NCBI GenBank assembly: GCA_021788365.1
Contig: JAJYKS010000005.1
Location: forward strand, 14,754 to 78,753
Reading direction: 5' to 3'
From: a bacterium
Lineage (GTDB): Bacteria > Patescibacteriota > Microgenomatia > UBA1400 > UBA12108
DNA: 64,000 nucleotides
The position numbers were made by a program, and so were the translations under genes. A model generated the notes under the pieces. It was not told the DNA's origin. It was given only the letters and a program-made list of their open reading frames with translations, and searched no databases. Positions 5,600-58,619 of the stretch are shown here, piece by piece; positions within the stretch are counted from its first letter, which is position 1; every line of letters begins with the position of its first letter.

Positions 5600-5621
5600 G
5601 TTTCTAGTATAACCCACGGCT

Positions 5622-5723
5622 CGTCGTATTCCCAAGTGAAAAACCGGTCTGTCTGCGACTGGTGTCGCAGCGACCTTGTGCTCGGACCAGTCCTGCGCAA
5701 TATTTTTCTTTGTGAACACGACT
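5622..5723. repeat. Copy 1 of ~100-nt structured intergenic element (candidate ncRNA/cis-RNA)
   Basis: Near-identical to 57202-57303 and homologous to 26949-27078. Contains nested inverted repeats (GGTC..CTGCGAC-tggtg-GTCGCAG..GACC; GGACcaGTCC) enclosed by an outer helix GTCGTATTC/GAACACGAC. Lies 23 nt upstream of the M50 protease start. Confidence 0.75.
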
Positions 5724-5744
5724 TCGCCTCTTCTTTTAGTAGGC

Positions 5745-5766
5745 GGTGCTCATATATCGCAAAAAT
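5745..5766 (+). promoter_or_regulatory. Conserved 22-nt upstream motif GGTGCTCATATATCGCAAAAAT (copy A)
   Basis: Same 22-mer with 0-4 mismatches at 23225-23246 (upstream of mreB) and 58598-58619 (upstream of folD), all upstream of plus-strand genes. Confidence 0.5.
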
Positions 5767-5810
5767 TTATCGCGAACATATTTTCGTATCTAGTCTCTGA
5801 AAATTGAAAA

Positions 5811-5839
5811 TTGACAAATGAAAATTGAATTGGTATACT
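5811..5839 (+). promoter_or_regulatory. Sigma-70-type promoter (TTGACA-17nt-TATACT)
   Basis: Perfect -35 TTGACA (5811-5816), 17-nt spacer, -10 TATACT (5834-5839). The predicted TSS is ~2-3 nt before the ATG at 5849 (near-leaderless). Confidence 0.65.
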
Positions 5840-9326: not shown

Positions 9327-10298
9327 TTAATCATTTAGATAATACTTTGTAAAGTCACCCCAAGTGATGGGTTTGGGTTTACCAGCGATAAGGATCTCGG
9401 GAGTTGCATACCTGGTATGTGATCTGGTGAGGACGAGGGTGAGGCGAAGGTTGCCTTTTTTGGTCGGGCAAATGGTCCAGACACCCGGCCACGGGGTTAG
9501 TGCCCGGCAGAGCCGGGCAATTTCCAATGACCAATTTTCAATTTTCAAGTGTTGTGTTTTTATTTTTGCTAATCGCAATTTGAGGAGCAGGTTGGTGGTT
9601 TCATCAGGGGCAATGGGTTGATTCGCAAGGAGTTTTTGGACAACGGGCCATTCAACATAACCGGAGTCGCGGGTAAAGCGTTTTGCATAGACTAGGACCT
9701 CTTTTTCCTGGTGTTGTGACTGCGCGCTGGGAACGGGTTTACCGCTAATGTAGTCTGCTACGAGCCCTGCACCTCGAGCAAAAAGCTCGGTGAGGAGGTC
9801 TGGAGCTCCTATTCCTGGTGGGGTGGGTATCTTTTCTTGCGCGACGACTTTACCGGTATCCACGCCTTCGTCGATCGTGAAAATGCTGACGCCAGTTGTT
9901 GTGTCGCCTAACGCAAGCGCATAGGGAACAGGTGCTACGCCGCGGTATTGGGGGAGGAGTGAGGGGTGAATGTTGAGAATACTTTTTAGGAATGTTTTGA
10001 TTAGCGGGGAGGGAAGAATGTGACCAAAAGAGGCGACCAAACCATACTCGTAATGATATGATTTGAGCATATCAATAAAATTGCTCATTTCTTCACTTTT
10101 TTCTGGATAATATATTACTTTTATATTTTGCGTGATGGCTAGTTTTTCAACGGGGTTGGGCTCTCGCTTTTGCTCGCGACCTTTGGGTTTCCCTCGGTCG
10201 GTCACCACAGCTAAAATCGCGATGTTTTGATCATCGATTATCCGCTGCAGCACTATCGCAGAATACTGATCGACGCCAAAAAAGATAAGAGAATGCAT
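9327..10298 (-). CDS. fmt: Methionyl-tRNA formyltransferase
   Basis: N-terminal formyltransferase core with NIHPSLLPQYRGVAPV (SLLP..RG motif), ~320 aa with a C-terminal Fmt-type domain. Contains an in-frame (AATTTTC)n stretch at 9533-9550. Confidence 0.85.
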   Translation of the reverse strand: MHSLIFFGVDQYSAIVLQRIIDDQNIAILAVVTDRGKPKGREQKREPNPVEKLAITQNIKVIYYPEKSEEMSNFIDMLKSYHYEYGLVASFGHILPSPLIKTFLKSILNIHPSLLPQYRGVAPVPYALALGDTTTGVSIFTIDEGVDTGKVVAQEKIPTPPGIGAPDLLTELFARGAGLVADYISGKPVPSAQSQHQEKEVLVYAKRFTRDSGYVEWPVVQKLLANQPIAPDETTNLLLKLRLAKIKTQHLKIENWSLEIARLCRALTPWPGVWTICPTKKGNLRLTLVLTRSHTRYATPEILIAGKPKPITWGDFTKYYLND

Positions 10299-23103: not shown

Positions 23104-23164
23104 GGGTAGAGTATATCAGGATTATTTGTTGGGGATTGCTTGTACTATTTTTTACTAGGATTGC

Positions 23165-23246
23165 GCTCCTTTCAGGAAAAATATGCTTGCATGACAAGCG
23201 CGCTACGCATATTTTTCTTGAATAGGTGCTCGTATACGTAAAAAAT
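23165..23246 (+). promoter_or_regulatory. ~80-nt conserved upstream element (copy B): GCTCCTTTCAGGAAAAAT ...60 nt... GGTGCTCGTATACGTAAAAAAT
   Basis: Both sub-motifs, and the internal CG.ATTTTyCTTG, recur with the same ~59-60-nt spacing at 58539-58619 upstream of folD. Lies 89 nt upstream of the mreB start. Confidence 0.5.
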
Positions 23247-23334: not shown

Positions 23335-24387
23335 ATGTTAAACACGCTTCTCGGCTTTTTTTCACAGGACATGGGGATCGATCTCGGCACAGCAAACACG
23401 CTCGTATTTGTAAAAGGTAAGGGTATCCTCATCCGTGAGCCATCGTACGTTGCGCGCCACAAGCGCAGTGGTTCGGTCTTGGCAATTGGCTCGGAAGCAA
23501 AGCTCATGGCTGGGAAGACACCGGAGGCGATCGAGGCGATACGCCCCCTACGCGACGGAGTGATCGCCGATTTCGACGCTGCGGAGGCAATGCTCGACTA
23601 CTATATCAAACTAGTTCATCAACACAGTCCATGGGTCTCCAGAGTACCGCGACCGCGAGTCATCGTGGGGATCCCATCGGGTGTGACGGAAGTGGAACGG
23701 CGAGCGGTACAAGAGGCCGCAATCGAGGCCGGGGCGCGGGAGGCATATCTCGTGGAGGAGCCTATGGCGGCTGCAATCGGCGCGGGACTCCCCATCGATG
23801 AGCCACAGGGGCAGATGATCATCGATATTGGTGGTGGCACCACGGAGATTGCGGTGTTGTCCTTGGGGGGAATTGTTCTCAACAAATCGCTGCGAATCGC
23901 GGGAGATGAGCTGACTGAAGCGATTATCCATTTTGCTCGGGTGAAATATGGCCTGCTTTTGGGGGATGCCTCGGCGGAAGAGGTAAAAATAGCCGTGGGG
24001 AGCGCGACCGCCGATCCCTCCCACAAAGAATTACAAACGGTGGTACGCGGTCGAGACCTTGGGTCTGGACTACCCAAATCGCTCAAGTTCTCGGCTTCGG
24101 AAGTGCGGGAGGCGCTCTCGCCGACCCTGCAATCTATAACTCGTGCAGTAATGGACGTTCTCGAGGAGACACCGCCAGAGCTTGTGGCCGATATTCTTCA
24201 ACACGGGATAACTATGGCGGGCGGCGGCTCACTCATTCGTGGTATAGACAAGATGATTGCGGAGGAAACAAAGATGCCGGTCTGGATTACCGACGAGCCA
24301 ATGGCCGCAGTCGTGCGTGGGTGTGGAAAGCTATTGTCTGATGATCGCTTGCTGCGGAAAGTGAAGGTTGGGGCTCGCCTGCGGTAG
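23335..24387 (+). CDS. mreB: Rod-shape-determining protein MreB
   Basis: MLNTLLGFFSQDMGIDLGTANTLV..., IGGGTTEIAV and C-terminal actin-fold motifs. Start at 23335 gives the same N-terminal spacing as E. coli MreB; the ORF track starts at a TTG at 23287. Confidence 0.9.
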   Translation: MLNTLLGFFSQDMGIDLGTANTLVFVKGKGILIREPSYVARHKRSGSVLAIGSEAKLMAGKTPEAIEAIRPLRDGVIADFDAAEAMLDYYIKLVHQHSPWVSRVPRPRVIVGIPSGVTEVERRAVQEAAIEAGAREAYLVEEPMAAAIGAGLPIDEPQGQMIIDIGGGTTEIAVLSLGGIVLNKSLRIAGDELTEAIIHFARVKYGLLLGDASAEEVKIAVGSATADPSHKELQTVVRGRDLGSGLPKSLKFSASEVREALSPTLQSITRAVMDVLEETPPELVADILQHGITMAGGGSLIRGIDKMIAEETKMPVWITDEPMAAVVRGCGKLLSDDRLLRKVKVGARLR

Positions 24388-25435
24388 AATAGTGCTTGTG
24401 AAAACGTTCCAAAAACTAAAACAAAATCCAGCGTTGTGGCGGCCGTATTTCGTGCGGGAACAGGTTATCGATGCCACGCGCGCCTATTTGAAGGGTCGCG
24501 GGTTTCATGAGGTGGAGACGCCGCTTCTTTTGCCAACGCCCTCTACCGAGCCATTCCTCGAAGTTTTCCGAACTGAGCTCAAGAATGATGTTGGCCGCAC
24601 GTGGCCGGCGTTCCTCCCTACGAGTCCGGAATATGCGCTAAAGAAACTTCTTGCTGCGGGATCAGGTTCGATATTCGAGATCACCAAAAGCTTTAGGAAT
24701 GGTGAGGGGAAGAGCAGCCGGCACAACCCCGAGTTCACCATTCTTGAATGGTATGAGGTCGGTGGGGATTATATGAGTGTTGCAAAAGACATGGAAGCGC
24801 TTCTTTTGTATATCAATAGAAAAGTGCATGGGCGAGATACCACAACACTCCAATACCAGGGTAAAAAATACTCACTTGCGGTACCGTGGGAGAAAATCTC
24901 GGTTGCTGAGGCGTTCCAGAAGTACGCGGGGATCGATACGGAGACGATGCTCGATGGCAAACGGCTTATGGCCTACGGCCTACAACATGGATATCAAGTG
25001 CGAGAAGATACAACGTGGGAGGAAATCTGGAACCAGATCATGGCGAACGAGATAGAGCCACACCTTGGAGTTGGTGGGCCGACTATTTTGTACGACTATC
25101 CAGTGGCACAGGCAGTACTCTCGAGACATGCGGCCGACTCACGATTTGCCGAGCGGTGGGAGCTGTACCTCGCGGGGCTCGAACTCGCCAATTGTTATGG
25201 CGAACTCACCGATTCGGCGGAAGTGGAGCGGCGCAGCTGGCGTGACCTCGCAGCGCGGAAGCAGCTTGGTAAAACAAACTTTCCTATAGATGAAGATTTT
25301 ATCGAGGCGCTCAAAATGGGCATGCCTTCTTCTGGTGGAGTGGCGGTGGGGATGGACAGGCTTGCGATGCTCTTTGCCGATGTGACAACTATTGGGGATG
25401 TGCGATTTTTTCCAGCAGCAGAACTTTTTACCTAG
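24368..25435 (+). CDS. epmA: EF-P--(R)-beta-lysine ligase (EpmA/PoxA/GenX; class II LysRS paralog lacking anticodon-binding domain)
   Basis: TSPEYALKKLLAAGSGSIFEITKSFRNGEGKSSRHNPEFTILEWY, ERWELYLAGLELANCYGELTD and IEALKMGMPSSGGVAVGMDRLAML align with E. coli EpmA motifs 1-3. Start uncertain; 24368 overlaps the mreB stop by 20 nt. Confidence 0.85.
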   Translation: MGLACGRIVLVKTFQKLKQNPALWRPYFVREQVIDATRAYLKGRGFHEVETPLLLPTPSTEPFLEVFRTELKNDVGRTWPAFLPTSPEYALKKLLAAGSGSIFEITKSFRNGEGKSSRHNPEFTILEWYEVGGDYMSVAKDMEALLLYINRKVHGRDTTTLQYQGKKYSLAVPWEKISVAEAFQKYAGIDTETMLDGKRLMAYGLQHGYQVREDTTWEEIWNQIMANEIEPHLGVGGPTILYDYPVAQAVLSRHAADSRFAERWELYLAGLELANCYGELTDSAEVERRSWRDLAARKQLGKTNFPIDEDFIEALKMGMPSSGGVAVGMDRLAMLFADVTTIGDVRFFPAAELFT

Positions 25436-26330
25436 TGTATGGCGGGTCCGAGAGACCGCAGAGAAAATCAGGTTCGACACATCCGAGGGTGGGTGAGTTT
25501 GGGTGTTTTGCCGCCCATTCTTCGAGGCGTGTGTAGAGCCCGTCGATCAAGTCCTGCGGGTTGGAGTGAATATCTCCCAAGGCGCGTATGCCCTCACAAC
25601 ACGCGTTCACCGAGCCGTCGCTCATCAAAGATAATTCGTAGCAACCAAGGCTGCGCGGCGGGAAGACGGCTTTGTTTTCGGCGAGAGATTTTACTTGCGC
25701 TTTTTGGGGGAAGTCGAAACCAGCAATCGTTCCCACTTGGTTGGAGATGGGATGGTTTTCGAGATATGTCATGGGCTTCCGAGGATGGTAGGTAATGTCG
25801 GGGAGCGCCCCCAGTTCTTTGGTAAGCAGTGCCTCAAAGGCGGGGATAAGGGGTATATTCTCGTGCGTTGCGATTGAGTAAACCTCGAGGTGGAAGCCGA
25901 GACTCTGTGCTTTTTTGAGAAAGGTGAGGCTTTTCTCAAAGTTGCCGGCGCCGCGATTCTTGTCGTGGTATTCGGGTAGCCCGTCGAGGGAGACGATGAT
26001 GTTGACACTGTTTGGCGTCGTAAACTCTGCTAGTCGGTCGGCGGTGCCGTTGGTTATAACTTGGATGAAAAGCCCTTGGTCTGTTAGCTTGTTCACGAGG
26101 TTCGGGAAAACGCGGAGAAGCATCACCTCGCCCCCGCAAAAAGTGATCGAGGAGAGGCGATGGACTTTCTGGTATCGGCTCACAAAGTCGAGGATCGCCT
26201 CTGGAGTCAAAATATCACTGCTCTTGACAGTGTAGCAAATTTTGCAGCAGAGGTTGCAGCGCTCGAGGGGGGTCACGTAGAGATGATCGAGGACGGCTTC
26301 GATGTGTGACTGTATTGTGGGTGCGAGCAT
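25428..26330 (-). CDS. Radical SAM enzyme (N-terminal CxxxCxxC at residues ~25-32, Cys-rich C-terminal region); not KamA/EpmB-like
   Basis: From ATG 26330: MLAPTIQSHIEAVLDHLYVTPLERCNLCCKICY...FCGGEVMLL (radical-SAM core) with C-terminal cysteines (CYELS...NACCEG...GCVEPDFLCG). The ATG lies 1 nt after the efp stop (TAA-C-ATG on the minus strand). The ORF track extends to 26384. Confidence 0.7.
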   Translation of the reverse strand: MLAPTIQSHIEAVLDHLYVTPLERCNLCCKICYTVKSSDILTPEAILDFVSRYQKVHRLSSITFCGGEVMLLRVFPNLVNKLTDQGLFIQVITNGTADRLAEFTTPNSVNIIVSLDGLPEYHDKNRGAGNFEKSLTFLKKAQSLGFHLEVYSIATHENIPLIPAFEALLTKELGALPDITYHPRKPMTYLENHPISNQVGTIAGFDFPQKAQVKSLAENKAVFPPRSLGCYELSLMSDGSVNACCEGIRALGDIHSNPQDLIDGLYTRLEEWAAKHPNSPTLGCVEPDFLCGLSDPPYTR

Positions 26331-26331
26331 G

Positions 26332-26895
26332 TTAGGCGCGGCCGACGTAGGTATCAGTCTCGGTGTCGACGATAATTGTCTCACCTTGTTTTACAAAGAG
26401 GGGGGCCAAAACTTCGACACCTCCTTCGACGACAACCGTCTTCTTTGGTGCGTTTACCGTGTTGCCAGCAACGGCTTCCTGGGCTTCGATGACCTTTACC
26501 GTCACTTTCGGGGGGAAACGTACGCCCATGGCCTCACCCTCGTAGAAACTGAAGAACATCTTTGCTTCGGGGAGTAGCCATTTTTGTTTGCCGTCGAAAA
26601 TGGATGCCGGGATCTCGAATTGATCGTAGGTGCGGGGGTCCATAAAGTAATAGATGTCGCCGTCGGCGTAGAGGTACTGCAGCTCGCGTGTCTCGACGTC
26701 GACTACCTCGACGCTGTCGCTACTCTTGTAGGTGTAGTCATAGACGTTGCCGGTTTTGACGTTCTTGAGACGGGTGCGGGCGAAAGCAGATCCCTTGCCG
26801 GGAAAGTAGAACTCGCACTTGAGGACGGCGTGAGGTTGGTTTTTGTACAGCACGAACATGTCGCGCTTTAGTTGGTTGGCTTTAATGCTTGGCAT
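26332..26895 (-). CDS. efp: Elongation factor P
   Basis: 187 aa with three OB-like domains. Modification loop FPGKGSAFARTRLKN carries the Lys of the PGKG motif, i.e. the EpmA-type lysylation target. Confidence 0.95.
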   Translation of the reverse strand: MPSIKANQLKRDMFVLYKNQPHAVLKCEFYFPGKGSAFARTRLKNVKTGNVYDYTYKSSDSVEVVDVETRELQYLYADGDIYYFMDPRTYDQFEIPASIFDGKQKWLLPEAKMFFSFYEGEAMGVRFPPKVTVKVIEAQEAVAGNTVNAPKKTVVVEGGVEVLAPLFVKQGETIIVDTETDTYVGRA

Positions 26896-26948
26896 ACTGC
26901 GAGATTATACCGCTGGTGTACGAGTTTCGGCAATATTATCTACTTATC

Positions 26949-27078
26949 ACGGTTTACCAAATTCCCAAGTGAAAAACCGGTCTGTCTGCGCCTGCTGGCG
27001 CAGCGACCTTATGCTCGCCCAGCCGTTCGCGAGCAGCTGGGCTGCGCAATATTTTTATTGTGAATATTGGTAAACCGT
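26949..27078. repeat. Copy 2 of structured intergenic element (with extra internal helix and perfect 12-bp outer stem)
   Basis: Shares TTCCCAAGTGAAAAACCGGTCTGTCTGCG...GCGCAATATTTTT with copies 1 and 3. Hairpin 1 is CTGCGCC-tgct-GGCGCAG (compensated). Hairpin 2 is replaced by GCCCAGC-cgttcgcgagca-GCTGGGC. Outer stem ACGGTTTACCAA/TTGGTAAACCGT. Lies ~70 nt upstream of efp and overlaps the stop of gene 27078-27653. Confidence 0.75.
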
Positions 27079-27653
27079 TATCTCTCAGCTGTGAGCGTGA
27101 GCCACGTGTCGGAAGTGGTGGAGCAGGCGGCGGGCTGCGTCTGGACTTTGAGGTAATCAAGACCGGAGACGGACTTTAACGTACCTGATCCGGAAATCTG
27201 GGTCTGGGCGATGACTTCCTCACCATTACTCTTCCAGGCCGTCACGTTAGCACTGTAGCCGTCTTTTAGCGAGTACTTGAGGGTGAGGGGTCCGGTTATA
27301 TCCTTAATTTCTGTCATGTAACTTTGTGAGCAGTCACTCGTTTTCACCAGGGTGAGAGTGAGGTGCGTTGTCGTGGTTGTTGTTGTCGTGACAGTACTTG
27401 TGGAGGCACCTTTAACGAGACCACCTTTGGTTGTAGGTACGTAGGTTCGTGCTGGGACATAGGGTGTTGCGGTGGGGGTAGGCGTGGGGGTGGGTGTTGG
27501 AGTTGGGGAGGGGGTCGCTGATACCATGGGCGACGGTGAGGGGGAAGTAAATCTGCTCACGAGTGAGGGGGCAAAGCGTACCGCACCGTAGAGCGCTATC
27601 GCAACAACGAGTACTCCAAAGAAGCCGACGAAGACATATTGTAGTGATTTCAT
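27078..27653 (-). CDS. N-terminally anchored protein with PT-repeat linker (hypothetical, extracellular)
   Basis: N-terminal TM/signal anchor, (PT)n linker, T-rich stretch, and a C-terminal ~110-aa domain with two Cys. Confidence 0.5.
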   Translation of the reverse strand: MKSLQYVFVGFFGVLVVAIALYGAVRFAPSLVSRFTSPSPSPMVSATPSPTPTPTPTPTPTATPYVPARTYVPTTKGGLVKGASTSTVTTTTTTTTHLTLTLVKTSDCSQSYMTEIKDITGPLTLKYSLKDGYSANVTAWKSNGEEVIAQTQISGSGTLKSVSGLDYLKVQTQPAACSTTSDTWLTLTAER

Positions 27654-33662: not shown

Positions 33663-34199
33663 ATGAAACTCATCGTTGGTCTCGGGAATCCGGGAGAGAA
33701 GTATCAAAATAATCGGCACAATGCAGGATTTATGGTCGTCGACGCGCTAGCAAAGCTGGCGCAATTTTCAATTTTCAATTTTCAATTTTCAAAAAAATTT
33801 GATTCAGAAGTGATGCAAACACCTGATATTTTGTTGGCGAAGCCACAGACATTTATGAACGACAGCGGAGTTGCGGTCGCGGCACTTTGCCACTTTTATA
33901 AAGTGAAGTATGAAGACCTCTATATTGTCCACGACGATCTTGATATACAGCTCGGTAACTACAAGATCCAGCATGGCAAGGGGCCAAAGGTACACAATGG
34001 GTTGCGATCGGTAGAAGAGAAGTTGGGTACGGAAAAATTTTGGAACGTACGGATAGGGGTAGAGAACCGAGCGGTGCGGGGGAACAAAGGGGTGCCGGGA
34101 GTGGTATATAGCTTGCAGGATTTTACGGAGGATGAGCGGGTTATATTGAACGGTGTTGTTCGAGATGCAGCTGGGGAGTTGTTGACACACCTTCGGTAG
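33663..34199 (+). CDS. pth: Peptidyl-tRNA hydrolase
   Basis: MKLIVGLGNPGEKYQNNRHNAGF...HNGLRS motifs. -10-like TATACT (33650-33655) sits 7 nt upstream of the ATG (leaderless candidate). Contains an in-frame (CAATTTT)4 insertion encoding FSIFNFQFS. Confidence 0.9.
   Translation: MKLIVGLGNPGEKYQNNRHNAGFMVVDALAKLAQFSIFNFQFSKKFDSEVMQTPDILLAKPQTFMNDSGVAVAALCHFYKVKYEDLYIVHDDLDIQLGNYKIQHGKGPKVHNGLRSVEEKLGTEKFWNVRIGVENRAVRGNKGVPGVVYSLQDFTEDERVILNGVVRDAAGELLTHLR
33762..33785. repeat. (CAATTTT)n tandem microsatellite inside pth
   Basis: caattttcaattttcaattttcaa. Related arrays occur at 9533-9550 (inside fmt) and, as the reverse complement tgaaaattgaaaattga, at 5798-5833 (promoter region). Confidence 0.8.
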
Positions 34200-40231: not shown

Positions 40232-40996
40232 TTTACAAGGATGATTCCTGTACCCTTTAAGGTGGCTACTCTAAGACTAAGTATTTATTGCCGGACTTTA
40301 GATCGAGCGGCTCCTCGACAAAATGTTGGTACGAATTCTTGGGATTCGTTTTCGAAAAGTATGTGAGGATGTTTTCGGGATGTACCCAGGGTTGATGTAT
40401 ATAGCCTAGGTAGTTTTTGTAGCTTGAATACGGATAACCGGCTAATTTACAGGGATCATCCTTGTAAGATGCCAGTTTTAGGGGGTTGCGGTGGATATAT
40501 TTTGTGAGCCATAGAAATTGGTTTTCTTGCTCTACCATTACTGCCTTGTAGATGCCTTGGAATAAATGCCCGACTCGGGAGTATTTTTTATTGAAATACA
40601 TGGAGTAGCGAGTTCCTAGTGAGCGCATAAAACGGTTCATGGAGTCCTTGTTTACTTGTCGTAACAGAAGATGAAAGTGGTTGGGCATGAGGCAGTAGGA
40701 GACGAGCTCGATAGTTTTTTCGTGGTTATTTGGTTGGCGAGAGGGGGCGTAGATTACTTTTTGGATATCTGACAGGGATGATCCTTGTAAAGTGCGGGCA
40801 AGGCGATGGTCTACTGGTTTTGATGGGGTAAGGTAGAGCTTAAGACACCCTAGGAAAGTAACGTAATCTTTTTCGTCGAGAAAAATATCGCGTTTCTCCA
40901 CCCCGCGGTTGTAGATGTGATAATAGGTGTGATCGACGTAGGTTTTTTGACTGTTCTTTGGTGGCATGATAGTTTACAGGGATCATCCCTGTAAAC
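40232..40996. mobile_element. RAYT (REP-associated tyrosine transposase) unit with flanking REP palindromes
   Basis: The Y1-HuH transposase gene is flanked by TTACAAGGATGATTCCTGTA (40233-40252) and the perfect palindrome TTTACAGGGATCATCCCTGTAAA (40974-40996). Further copies occur inside the gene (40447-40467, 40771-40792) and at 45734-45755. Confidence 0.7.
40266..40967 (-). CDS. IS200/IS605-family Y1 (HuH) transposase, RAYT-type
   Basis: YHIYNRG...YCLMPNHFHLL (HuH)...YIHRNP plus a C-terminal extension with the YPYSSY motif typical of REP-associated tyrosine transposases. 233 aa. Confidence 0.75.
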   Translation of the reverse strand: MPPKNSQKTYVDHTYYHIYNRGVEKRDIFLDEKDYVTFLGCLKLYLTPSKPVDHRLARTLQGSSLSDIQKVIYAPSRQPNNHEKTIELVSYCLMPNHFHLLLRQVNKDSMNRFMRSLGTRYSMYFNKKYSRVGHLFQGIYKAVMVEQENQFLWLTKYIHRNPLKLASYKDDPCKLAGYPYSSYKNYLGYIHQPWVHPENILTYFSKTNPKNSYQHFVEEPLDLKSGNKYLVLE

Positions 40997-41014
40997 TATG
41001 GTATAGTCTTTACG

Positions 41015-45620: not shown

Positions 45621-45733
45621 TGTAGTAAAGCATTTTAAATAGGCGTTTGCAACGCGGCAAACGGTATCAGATACCCGCCTACGAGGACAGTCCTCGCAGG
45701 CTCGGATACCTGCTACCTGATTAGCGGCACATC

Positions 45734-45755
45734 TTACAGGGATGATCCCTGTAAA
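45734..45755. repeat. REP palindrome TTACAGGGATGATCCCTGTAAA (orphan copy)
   Basis: Same palindrome family as the RAYT-flanking REPs 4.7 kb upstream. Confidence 0.75.
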
Positions 45756-45809
45756 GTGCAAGCCTCTTGACCTTGGAAATCTGGGCTACACGAGGGCAGG
45801 TTGTAACCC

Positions 45810-57154: not shown

Positions 57155-57201
57155 GATGATTATTATACCTCGTGATATTTTGCTTTCACGCTACAAAAGC
57201 T

Positions 57202-57303
57202 CGCCGTATTCCCAAGTGAAAAACCGATCTGTCTGCGGCTGGTGCCGCAGCGATCTTGTGCTCGGATCAATCCTGCGCAATATTTTTCTTTGTGAACACG
57301 GCT
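57202..57303. repeat. Copy 3 of structured intergenic element
   Basis: ~90% identical to copy 1, with compensated changes in every helix: outer GCCGTATTC/GAACACGGC, GATC/GATC, CTGCGGC/GCCGCAG, GGATcaATCC. Lies ~50 nt upstream of the glyA start and is followed on the plus strand by CTTTTTT. Confidence 0.75.
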
Positions 57304-57387
57304 TCGCTTTTTTAACGCTACCGTTGCGAGACATACCAACATGTTTCAGGAATGTGTATTGGGGCAGGGCGTACAATAACTCATAGT

Positions 57388-58494: not shown

Positions 58495-58538
58495 GTGATT
58501 TGCCTGTTAATATTGCGTATATTTTTGCTAACGACTCC

Positions 58539-58619
58539 GCTCCTTTCAGGGAAAATCTTCCTTACTCGCTTTGCTTGTGCGTCGATTTTCCTTGGGCGGT
58601 GCTCATATATCGCAAAAAT
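58539..58619 (+). promoter_or_regulatory. ~80-nt conserved upstream element (copy C) ending 34 nt before folD
   Basis: GCTCCTTTCAGGGAAAAT ...59 nt... GGTGCTCATATATCGCAAAAAT, co-linear with 23165-23246. TATAAT at 58641-58646 lies 6 nt before the folD ATG (leaderless candidate). Confidence 0.5.

What the first reader, a model, noticed from the sequence alone, without database searches (positions are those of the whole stretch)
26949..27078. Copy 2 of the element: extra helix, perfect 12-bp closing stem, overlaps a gene stop and sits 70 nt upstream of efp
This copy replaces hairpin 2 with a longer GC-rich helix (GCCCAGC-cgttcgcgagca-GCTGGGC) and is closed by a perfect 12-bp inverted repeat. Its 3' arm (27067-27078) overlaps the stop codon of the upstream minus-strand gene 27078-27653. 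In that sense the element could act as that gene's terminator while also forming the 5' leader of the efp-radical SAM operon. Helix swapping with a preserved overall architecture is typical of structured RNAs.
Basis: seen in the sequence. Interest (0 to 1): 0.6.

Follow-up and report, generated by a model that had tools for sequence, protein, structure and literature searches.

The report
Replication-oriented structured intergenic repeat of Microgenomates
The hairpin upstream of efp is one copy of an undescribed, roughly 125-base folded element found about every 17 kb between genes in one group of tiny uncultured bacteria, and every copy found points the same way relative to the strand (GC-skew) asymmetry that marks DNA replication direction, which no ordinary gene-control element does.

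Summary
26949-27078 carries a perfect 12-bp closing inverted repeat, an enlarged GC hairpin, and touches the stop codon of gene 27078-27653. It lies 53 nt from the efp ATG, not 70.

It is the most derived of three window copies (5612-5735, 26945-27083, 57192-57315) of a three-way-junction element. The family has no Rfam match. I found about 130 copies in Microgenomates-group (CPR) genomes and metagenomes.

- **Structure:** 91% of cells pair, and 34-37 of 43 pairs show double changes.
- **Strand:** G-U outnumbers A-C 152 to 23, so the folding strand is the window minus strand.
- **Polarity:** that strand is the C-rich strand in 111 of 111 loci, whatever the orientation of neighbouring genes.
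- **Selection:** orthologous copies are better conserved than the flanking genes.
- **Not mobile in the classic sense:** no target-site duplications, no conserved termini.
- **No fixed promoter.**

It is not an efp leader. A promoter conserved in a related strain lies between the element and the ATG, and relatives lack the element there.

The core looks like an asymmetric two-way terminator. My best guess, at about 0.3, is a polarity-fixed terminator/insulator that ends the upstream gene's transcript. An ssDNA recombination or transposition substrate is almost as likely.

The parts
26945..27083 (-). Copy 2 of the element. This is the whole match to the family covariance models; the helix-closed core is 26949-27078.
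   Evidence: R1 scores 114 bits and R2 scores 95 bits. The fold is -62.7 kcal/mol with z -7.2.
27067..27078 (-). 5' arm of the closing stem (P1), ACGGUUUACCAA. Its first base is the last base of the TAA stop of gene 27078-27653.
26949..26960 (-). 3' arm of the closing stem (P1), UUGGUAAACCGU.
27051..27057 (-). A-tract (UAAAAAU). It pairs with the U-tract. The three central A-U pairs never vary in the family.
27018..27041 (-). P3, the variable peripheral hairpin, enlarged in this copy (9 bp with an 8-nt loop). Other members have 4-5 bp with a G-N-G-Y-A loop, or inserts of 40-80 nt.
26979..27008 (-). P2, a GC-rich hairpin built from a 4-bp lower helix, a small internal loop and a 7-bp upper helix. 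The loop here is AGCA (26996-26993); the family loop is ACCA.
   Evidence: 99% of cells pair, and 10-12 of 12 pairs covary.
26971..26978 (-). GGUUUUUC, the U-tract directly after P2. Together they look like an intrinsic terminator in the minus direction.
5612..5735 (-). Copy 1. It lies between the start of an M50-type protease gene (ATG 5600, minus) and a divergent plus-strand gene.
57192..57315 (-). Copy 3. It lies between the start of glyA (ATG 57154, minus) and a divergent plus-strand gene.
26904..26933 (-). Promoter-like site for efp (TTGCCG, 18 nt, TATAAT). It lies downstream of the element and 8 nt before the ATG.
   Evidence: Found. The 42 nt before the ATG are identical in strain L046, whose 40 nt further upstream (to the contig start) carry none of the element.
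27078..27653 (-). Upstream 191-aa gene whose stop codon abuts the element. A syntenic 188-aa homologue in L002 has the same C-terminus.
26332..26895 (-). efp, shown for context. It is not part of the element.

Best explanation
**Shown.** Copy 2 is a derived member of an undescribed family of elements about 125 nt long.
- The fold is a long closing stem (P1), an invariant A-tract/U-tract helix, a variable hairpin (P3), and a GC-rich 11-12-bp hairpin (P2) with an ACCA loop. Conserved unpaired bases are CGCAG, CGAG, AGGU and ACCG.
- The family is dispersed at roughly one copy per 17 kb in the intergenic regions of Microgenomates-group (CPR) bacteria.
- It folds in one strand only, the window minus strand.
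- That strand is always the C-rich, lagging-type strand of the chromosome, independent of neighbouring gene orientation.
- Individual copies are under purifying selection.

**Inferred, and my committed guess.** The element works in cis in single-stranded form, most likely as RNA, as an asymmetric two-way terminator/insulator placed at gene ends.
- Its stronger terminator face is P2 plus the U-tract. That face always points at transcription running against the replication fork.
- Its weaker face is the complement of P3 plus a U-tract. That face points at co-directional transcripts.
- At copy 2 this would end the transcript of gene 27078-27653 at its stop codon and shield the separate, leaderless-type efp promoter from read-through.
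- The conserved junction and loops would serve an unknown partner, for example a protein.
For: **Family and structure.**
- There are three window copies.
- Homologues occur in relatives, in 37 of 39 genome loci and in 71 of 73 metagenome loci.
- Pairing is 91.4% and 91.0%. Pairs with changes on both sides number 34 and 37 of 43. In both sets 0 of 500 shuffles reach the observed values, and slid controls give only 30-51% paired.

**Strand.**
- G-U to A-C is 152:23 in the genome set.
- In the metagenome set the ratios are 51:6 (P1b), 24:5 (P1d) and 19:0 (P2).
- The sense fold is more stable than the antisense fold in 48 of 54 copies.

**Polarity.**
- GC skew on the element's strand is negative in 40 of 40 and 71 of 71 loci.
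- All multi-copy loci have every copy on one strand.
- The skew is the same in genes of either orientation: -0.20 and -0.21.

**Terminator anatomy.**
- P2 averages -13.7 kcal/mol with 5.1 U in the next 9 nt.
- In the opposite direction P3 averages -7.6 kcal/mol with 6.4 U in the next 9 nt.
- The three A-U pairs of the tract helix never covary (AU 55-56 of 56), while neighbouring pairs do.

**Placement.**
- The median gap is 7-12 nt to stop codons and 24-27 nt to start codons.
- 74 of 85 copies follow at least one gene end.

**Selection.** Orthologous copies are 93-98% identical against 64-81% for flanks.

**Copy 2.** The stop codon sits in the stem, and efp's own promoter lies downstream of the element.
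Against: - A terminator needs neither a three-way junction nor the invariant CGCAG, CGAG, AGGU and ACCA bases.
- The 3' arm of P1 lies beyond the U-tract yet shows RNA-type covariation. Termination at that tract therefore cannot be complete.
- No positioned promoter lies upstream in the sense direction. In the commonest context, between two leading-strand genes (47 of 85), the sense RNA could arise only from antisense or divergent transcription.
- Placement among intergenic-region types looks random once the polarity is fixed, and 11 of 85 copies lie between divergent starts.
- I know of no precedent for terminators oriented by replication rather than by genes.
- No transcript data were available.
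- Calling the G-rich strand the leading strand rests on the general rule and on 65% of coding sequence lying on that strand. It does not rest on a mapped origin.
Confidence: 0.3

Rival explanations
1. The element is a substrate of a single-stranded-DNA recombination or transposition system, in the manner of REP/REPIN-RAYT elements, IS200/IS605-derived palindrome-associated elements, or integron attC sites. The folded DNA strand would be recognised by an HUH or tyrosine enzyme. The replication polarity would reflect where ssDNA is or is not exposed, with the surviving copies sitting on the leading-strand template, where folding is rare.
For: - Polarity is absolute. This is the hallmark of fork-coupled ssDNA mechanisms: IS608 acts at the lagging-strand template (PMC3333891 introduction; PMC5027513).
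- 25 of 30 sedentary integrons keep the recombinogenic attC strand on the leading-strand template (PMC5371416).
- There are no target-site duplications and no promoter.
- The copy number is high.
- Presence and absence differ between relatives: the efp site is filled only in the window, while the Wzy_C site is filled in L002 and L003.
- One orthologous site is occupied by different subfamilies.
- Unpaired bases are conserved and the fold is strand-specific.
Against: - The folding strand is on the leading-strand template, the opposite of the IS608 rule.
- There is no conserved cleavage tetranucleotide or terminus; the outermost columns of the model are not conserved.
- No transposase or recombinase was seen next to any copy inspected.
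- Orthologous copies are better conserved than neighbouring genes, which is unexpected for decaying non-autonomous copies.
- Subfamilies are shared across distant genomes.
- None was found in viral contigs.
Confidence: 0.24
2. The family encodes independent trans-acting small RNAs, protein-binding RNAs, or a new self-cleaving ribozyme. Each copy would be its own gene.
For: - Covariation is of RNA type, with about 9% G-U pairs.
- Conserved junction and loop bases are purine-rich.
- The peripheral arm varies in length.
- Paralogous subfamilies coexist within genomes.
- Each copy is under purifying selection.
- There is no consistent gene association, as with small ribozymes.
Against: - No positioned -10 box lies upstream.
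- Every copy would be transcribed head-on to replication, the opposite of what is seen for expressed stable RNA genes.
- Copies are squeezed 7-12 nt from convergent stop codons.
- There is no match to any Rfam ribozyme or sRNA even at E<=10.
Confidence: 0.16
3. The element is a replication- or repair-related polar DNA signal, such as a fork-pausing or restart site, or an orientation signal for a translocase or recombination enzyme in the manner of Chi, KOPS or Ter.
For: - Polarity is absolute and independent of genes.
- Spacing of roughly one copy per 17 kb resembles that of polar chromosome motifs.
- The invariant loop complement CTGGTG lies on the G-rich strand and equals the core of E. coli Chi (read; the Chi sequence is from my own knowledge).
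Against: - Known polar signals are 5-23 bp of duplex DNA, lie mostly inside genes, and need no 125-nt fold.
- The G-U to A-C asymmetry shows that a single-stranded fold is selected.
- Copies are strictly intergenic.
Confidence: 0.12
4. The element is a cis-regulatory 5' leader or riboswitch of the efp-radical SAM operon.
For: All three window copies lie 12-53 nt upstream of minus-strand genes and in the same orientation as those genes.
Against: - Promoter-like sites lie between the element and the ATG at the efp and glyA copies; at copy 1 the -10 box lies in that gap and the -35 hexamer falls inside the element.
- The efp promoter is conserved in a strain whose available 40 nt further upstream lack the element.
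- L002 has no element at efp.
- Only 22 of 85 copies have a same-direction gene downstream, and the genes involved are unrelated.
Confidence: 0.03
5. The element is a classic miniature inverted-repeat transposable element moved by a DDE transposase.
For: It is a dispersed repeat closed by inverted repeats. Short direct repeats flank copy 2 (AGATAA, with the downstream repeat 13 nt beyond the stem) and copy 3 (GTAGCGT).
Against: - Flanking direct repeats are no longer or more frequent than in shuffled-partner controls: 5.2 against 5.1, and 10 against about 15 expected.
- The terminal stems differ completely between copies while the interior is conserved.
- Orientation is absolute.
- Each copy is under purifying selection.
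Confidence: 0.04

Closest known systems
REP/BIME and REPIN elements with their RAYT (Y1 HUH) transposases
   Same: Both are high-copy, strictly intergenic, hairpin-forming repeats that often sit just after stop codons. Both lack target duplications, persist for long periods, and can act as terminators or mRNA stabilisers.
   Different: - REPs are 20-40-nt simple palindromes with a conserved 5' tetranucleotide, and they occur in both orientations within BIMEs.
- This element is a 125-nt three-way junction with conserved unpaired bases.
- It shows absolute strand polarity and is conserved across order-level lineages.
- No RAYT was identified.
IS200/IS605 family ends and their non-autonomous palindrome-associated derivatives
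   Same: Both have strand-specific folded structures, no target duplication, and an orientation tied to the replication fork.
   Different: - Those elements put the active strand on the lagging-strand template; here the folding strand is on the other strand.
- Here there is no conserved cleavage site or guide sequence at the ends.
- Here there is no transposase nearby.
Integron attC sites in sedentary chromosomal integrons
   Same: Both have a conserved structure with variable sequence and a single-strand fold with a variable terminal structure. Both abut stop codons. In both, the fold-competent strand is kept on the leading-strand template (PMC5371416).
   Different: - attC sites are arrayed with cassettes next to an integrase and carry RYYYAAC/GTTRRRY boxes.
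- These copies are scattered among housekeeping genes 3-30 kb apart and have no such boxes.
Bidirectional intrinsic terminators (A-tract, GC hairpin, U-tract)
   Same: Both have an A-tract and a U-tract flanking GC-rich hairpins, lie a few nucleotides after stop codons, and have invariant tracts.
   Different: - This element has two different hairpins in a three-way junction plus an outer stem of about 25 bp.
- Its loop and junction bases are conserved.
- Its orientation is fixed by replication, not by the gene it follows.
Polar chromosome motifs (Chi, KOPS, Ter)
   Same: Both show near-absolute orientation relative to the replication direction and a comparable density.
   Different: Those are short duplex motifs, mostly within genes. 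This is a long intergenic element selected for single-strand folding.

Membership tests
Any Rfam 15 family | A match to a curated covariance model | tested here: not met
   A gathering-threshold scan of the window found only one tRNA. Scans at E<=10 of copies 1 and 2 and of two distant members gave only chance hits below gathering scores.
Riboswitch / cis-regulatory 5' leader | Lies within the 5' UTR, between the promoter and the start codon of the regulated gene | tested here: not met
   At the efp and glyA copies the promoter-like sites are downstream of the element; at copy 1 the -35 hexamer falls inside it. The efp promoter is conserved in L046, whose available upstream 40 nt lack the element.
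Riboswitch / cis-regulatory 5' leader | Consistent orientation and association with a functionally related set of downstream genes | tested here: not met
   A same-direction downstream gene is present in only 22 of 85 copies. The neighbours are unrelated: M50 protease, efp, glyA, Wzy_C, cysS and others.
MITE (DDE-type) | Terminal inverted repeats conserved in sequence among copies | tested here: not met
   The outer stems differ entirely between copies while the core is conserved.
MITE (DDE-type) | Target-site duplications of fixed length | tested here: not met
   There is no excess over controls.
REP/BIME-RAYT | A 20-40-nt imperfect palindrome with a conserved 5' tetranucleotide (GTAG-like) | tested here: not met
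   The element is a 125-nt three-way junction, and its flanking columns are not conserved.
REP/BIME-RAYT | A cognate RAYT gene in the genome, flanked by the repeats | not testable with these tools
   Only 2-20-kb pieces of the MAGs were available. None of the inspected neighbours is a transposase.
IS200/IS605-type ssDNA element | Active (folding) strand on the lagging-strand template | tested here: not met
   The folding strand is the C-rich strand in 111 of 111 loci. That is the leading-strand template if the G-rich strand is the leading strand.
IS200/IS605-type ssDNA element | No target duplication, and a strand-specific structure | tested here: met
Integron attC | R''/R' boxes (RYYYAAC...GTTRRRY), and an array of cassettes next to intI | tested here: not met
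   The stem ends read GGU...ACC or are variable. Copies are 21 and 30 kb apart among housekeeping genes.
Intrinsic terminator | A GC-rich hairpin followed within 0-2 nt by a U-tract | tested here: met
   P2 averages -13.7 kcal/mol with 5.1 U in the next 9 nt. In the reverse direction P3 averages -7.6 kcal/mol with 6.4 U in the next 9 nt. The simple scanner did not call P2 because of its internal loop.
Intrinsic terminator | Actual 3' ends of transcripts at the U-tract | not testable with these tools
   No transcript data were available.

The most novel reading that the evidence does not exclude
The family is a new class of host-maintained, replication-oriented structured element. In this reading, a single-stranded fold (RNA or DNA) is placed about 50 times per genome with absolute polarity to manage conflicts between replication and transcription, or to direct a replication or repair activity, in ultra-small CPR bacteria. 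It would be neither a mobile repeat nor a gene-specific regulator.
Probability: 0.3. Interest if true: 0.9.

Novelty: new variant of a known kind. Interest (0 to 1): 0.72.

Why it matters
Almost nothing is known about non-coding elements in the Candidate Phyla Radiation. This family would take up roughly 0.7% of a ~1-Mb genome (about 125 nt per 17 kb). It is conserved across Collierbacteria- and Woesebacteria-like lineages and evolves more slowly than the genes beside it.

Its orientation follows the replication strand in 111 of 111 loci, whatever the genes around it do. I know of no other structured intergenic element for which that combination (fold, selection on each copy, absolute polarity, no transposon hallmarks) has been described.

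- If it is RNA, it points to a way of handling head-on transcription.
- If it is ssDNA, it points to an unknown recombination or replication activity in organisms that cannot be cultured.

In practice it also gives a strand-of-replication marker and explains contig breaks in these metagenome assemblies.

Tried and rejected
- **First DNA pattern.** CCAAGTGAAAAAC..TGCGCAATATT, taken from the window copies, found nothing in genome or metagenome contigs. It was too lineage-specific. The pattern built from six diverged copies worked.
- **Rfam.** No match at the gathering threshold or at E<=10.
- **Literature.** Full-text searches for a CPR/Microgenomates structured repeat found nothing relevant.
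- **Target-site duplications.** Two tests showed no excess, although copies 2 and 3 and a few others have 5-8-nt flanking repeats.
- **Dedicated promoter.** There is no positional TAnnnT peak upstream in the sense direction.
- **tRNA gene orientation as an independent replication marker.** It was uninformative: 7 on the element's strand against 4 on the other.
- **Phage origin.** There are no matches in viral contigs.
- **Small-protein coding on the plus strand.** Copies 1 and 2 are open in different frames, so this was rejected.
- **Pseudoknot between the ACCA loop and UGG in the 3' arm.** The UGG is absent in many members, so this was rejected.
- **K-turn reading of the GAA/GA internal loop.** The register conflicts with six Watson-Crick pairs, so this was rejected.
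- **GC skew as a by-product of gene orientation.** The skew is equal for genes on either strand, so this was rejected.
- **G-U excess as a by-product of composition or mutation bias.** The sense strand is G-poor, and skew-generating transitions would give A-C there rather than G-U, so this was rejected (inference).

Full report
**1. The observation**

- At 26949-26960 the plus strand reads ACGGTTTACCAA, and at 27067-27078 it reads the exact reverse complement. These are the only exact occurrences in the window.
- The extra helix is present: GCCCAGC at 27017-27023, a 12-nt loop, and GCTGGGC at 27036-27042.
- The TAA stop of the minus-strand ORF 27078-27653 shares one base with the stem.
- The efp ATG is at 26895, which is 53 nt from the element rather than 70.
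- The 130 nt fold at -62.7 kcal/mol on the minus strand and -61.1 kcal/mol on the plus strand. Z-scores are about -7.3, and none of 200 shuffles folds as well.
- A single copy therefore cannot reveal which strand carries the structure.

**2. Three copies, one architecture**

- Direct-repeat search and alignment give three co-oriented copies: 5612-5735, 26945-27083 and 57192-57315. They are 86-91% identical in the core but have unrelated outer stems.
- Joint folding on either strand gives the same three-way junction, with 8 pairs already showing compensatory changes among the three copies. Copy 2's extra bases sit in one peripheral hairpin.
- Copy 2 is the most derived copy. Its P2 loop is AGCA instead of ACCA, its closing stem is perfect and lacks the GAA/GA internal loop, and it has the lowest model score.

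**3. The family outside the window**

- EF-P homologues place the organism near Candidatus Collierbacteria, in the CPR Microgenomates group.
- A covariance model built from the three copies (R1) found diverged homologues in two relatives, at other positions.
- A pattern from the conserved bases (CGAG-N4-AGGT-N9-ACCA-N10-11-ACCG-N1-2-TTTT) hit 39 loci in species-representative genomes.
  - Nearly all are Microgenomates or Woesebacteria MAGs, often with 5-7 hits per MAG.
  - Several are labelled 'uncultured Pseudomonadales', which I take to be a mislabel.
- The same pattern hit 73 metagenome loci and no viral contigs.
- The models confirm 52 and 79 full-length copies. The only unconfirmed genome loci are a Gracilibacteria and a Saccharibacteria contig.
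- In sequence not selected for containing the element (the window, L002 and L003) there are 6 copies in 103 kb.
- There is no Rfam 15 match, even at E<=10, and I found no description in the literature.

**4. Structure and strand**

| Measure | 42 genomic copies | 56 distinct metagenomic copies |
|---|---|---|
| Cells forming a standard pair | 91.4% | 91.0% |
| Pairs (of 43) with changes on both sides | 34 | 37 |
| Shuffles (of 500) reaching the observed values | 0 | 0 |
| Pairing with partners slid by 1-3 columns | 30-45% | 37-51% |

- These alignments were fitted to the model, so the counts lean towards the structure. However, P2 covaries at 10-12 of 12 pairs between GC-rich and AU-rich versions.
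- G-U pairs outnumber A-C mismatches 152 to 23.
- By helix in the second set the ratios are 51:6, 24:5 and 19:0. Only the outermost 5 bp are symmetric, at 12:16.
- The sense strand is G-poor in its surroundings. Transitions that create the skew would produce A-C on that strand, not G-U. The asymmetry therefore reflects selection for folding of this strand, which is the window minus strand (inference).
- The sense fold is more stable than the antisense fold in 48 of 54 copies.
- Conserved unpaired or invariant bases are CGCAG, CGAG, AGGU, the ACCA loop, ACCG, and an AAA/UUU helix that never covaries.

**5. Not an efp leader**

- A TTGCCG-18-TATAAT site at 26933-26904 lies between the element and the ATG. 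A similar site lies in that gap at copy 3; at copy 1 the -10 box lies there and the -35 hexamer falls inside the element.
- Four assemblies of a strain with 99% identical EF-P share exactly the 42 nt before the ATG, including that promoter. Upstream of that, the 40 nt up to the contig start differ from the window and carry none of the element's 3' part, and the neighbouring genes differ.
- L002 (EF-P 80% identical) has the same upstream gene with the same C-terminus, a 47-nt spacer and no element.

**6. Genomic context**

The table covers 85 non-redundant copies with both neighbours called.

| Context | Copies |
|---|---|
| Between two genes on the opposite strand | 47 |
| Between convergent gene ends | 16 |
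| Between two same-strand genes (as copy 2) | 11 |
| Between divergent gene starts (as copies 1 and 3) | 11 |

- The median gap is 7-12 nt to stop codons and 24-27 nt to start codons.
- Neighbouring genes are unrelated to one another.
- There is no positioned -10 box upstream in the sense direction.
- Flanking direct repeats are not enriched.

**7. Polarity: the main new result**

- GC skew measured on the element's sense strand is negative in 40 of 40 genomic loci, with a mean of -0.21.
- It is negative in 71 of 71 metagenomic loci, 48 of them non-redundant, with a mean of -0.23 and the elements masked.
- In every locus with 2-3 copies, all copies are on one strand.
- The skew is -0.20 in genes on the element's strand, -0.21 in genes on the other strand, and -0.16 in intergenic DNA. 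It is therefore a chromosome-strand property and not a gene-orientation property.
- In the window every 4-kb bin has positive plus-strand skew, and all three copies are on the minus strand.
- 65% of coding sequence lies on the G-rich strand.
- By the general rule that leading strands are G-rich (my own knowledge), the folding strand has the lagging-strand sequence, which makes it the leading-strand template.
- tRNA orientation did not help to confirm this.

**8. Selection and turnover**

- At orthologous loci the element is 94%, 93% and 98% identical, against 69-81%, 64-75% and 85-96% for the flanks, which are mostly coding.
- Subfamilies defined by their P1 and P2 sequences coexist within a genome and recur across genomes.
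- One orthologous site, downstream of a conserved 170-aa gene, holds different subfamilies in different contigs.
- The site between mreB and Wzy_C is filled in L002 and L003. In the window that site holds only a short A-tract/hairpin/U-tract with similar flanks, which may be a remnant.

**9. How it may work**

- In the sense direction the core reads A-tract, P3, P2 (mean -13.7 kcal/mol), then G plus a U-tract with 5.1 U in 9 nt.
- In the other direction it reads P2', P3' (mean -7.6 kcal/mol), then a U-tract with 6.4 U in 9 nt.
- This is the anatomy of an asymmetric bidirectional intrinsic terminator. The non-covarying tracts fit that reading.
- I therefore commit, at about 0.3, to a terminator/insulator whose strong face always meets transcription running against replication. 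At copy 2 it would end the 191-aa gene's transcript and insulate the efp promoter.
- Four things count against this:
  - the conserved junction is unexplained;
  - the P1 3' arm lies beyond the U-tract yet covaries;
  - no sense promoter was found;
  - replication-set terminator polarity has no precedent that I know of.
- Almost as likely, at about 0.24, is a single-stranded-DNA recombination or transposition substrate kept on the strand where it rarely folds. The folded attC strand in sedentary integrons is a parallel: 25 of 30 sit on the leading-strand template (PMC5371416). This polarity is the opposite of the IS608 rule (PMC3333891).
- Less likely explanations are a trans-acting RNA or ribozyme (0.16), a polar replication or repair signal (0.12), a DDE-type MITE (0.04) and an efp leader (0.03).

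**10. Verdict**

- The 'structured RNA with a swapped helix' reading is supported.
- The terminator reading is plausible.
- The efp-leader reading is not supported.
- The family appears undescribed. Its absolute replication polarity, combined with selection on each copy, is unusual enough to merit experimental follow-up.

Noticed in passing
window 24368-26895: efp is followed by a radical-SAM gene (25428-26384, minus) and faces a PoxA/EpmA-like tRNA-synt_2 gene (24368-25435, plus). This looks like an EF-P lysylation gene cluster in a CPR genome.
   Followed up: no
window 5606-5611, 26904-26909, 57162-57167: TATAAT-type -10 boxes lie only 5-8 nt before the ATG of the M50 protease, efp and glyA genes, which suggests leaderless or near-leaderless mRNAs. 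The median element-to-start gap of about 25 nt family-wide leaves room for little more than such a promoter.
   Followed up: partly
window 1-64000 and loci L002-L122: GC skew is very strong and independent of gene orientation. It is about 0.14 in the window and 0.2-0.3 in relatives.
   Followed up: partly
window 40444-40472, 40767-40795, 40971-40999, 45731-45759: There are four copies of a 29-nt palindromic repeat (ACAGGGATSATCCYTGTAA core). It is unrelated to the element (family D3).
   Followed up: no
window 5742-5766 and 58595-58619; 23146-23182 and 58520-58556: An identical 25-mer (GGCGGTGCTCATATATCGCAAAAAT) abuts copy 1 and recurs upstream of a folD-like gene. A 37-mer is shared between the mreB upstream region and the same folD upstream region (families D5 and D10).
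   Followed up: no
window 5790-5830, 9517-9553, 33761-33792: GAAAATTGAAAATTGA-type short tandem motifs lie next to promoter-like sites.
   Followed up: no
L046-L049, positions 1-82: Four independent assemblies of a strain with 99% identical EF-P all start 82 nt upstream of efp and have different genes on both sides. This points to a rearrangement or repeat-induced contig break at this spot.
   Followed up: partly
window 23165-23225: Between Wzy_C and mreB, where L002 and L003 carry a full element, the window has only AAAAATATGC-N20-GCATATTTTT with similar flanks. This may be a decayed copy.
   Followed up: partly
P2 of all copies, e.g. window 5657-5670 and 57237-57250: The upper P2 helix is always 7 bp closed by ACCA and usually followed by G, like a tRNA acceptor end joined head to tail. 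Its complement CTGGTG, on the G-rich strand, equals the core of E. coli Chi. Both may be coincidence.
   Followed up: no
L040 3756-4006: An element copy lies 40 nt downstream of a tRNA-Ser gene on the same strand.
   Followed up: no
L026, L014, L031, L016, L025, L022 flanks: Several copies of one subfamily carry GCGAG or AGCGAG a few nucleotides outside both ends of the closing stem. Copy 3 has GTAGCGT on both sides. This was not significant overall, but it may mark a preferred site or an extra motif.
   Followed up: partly
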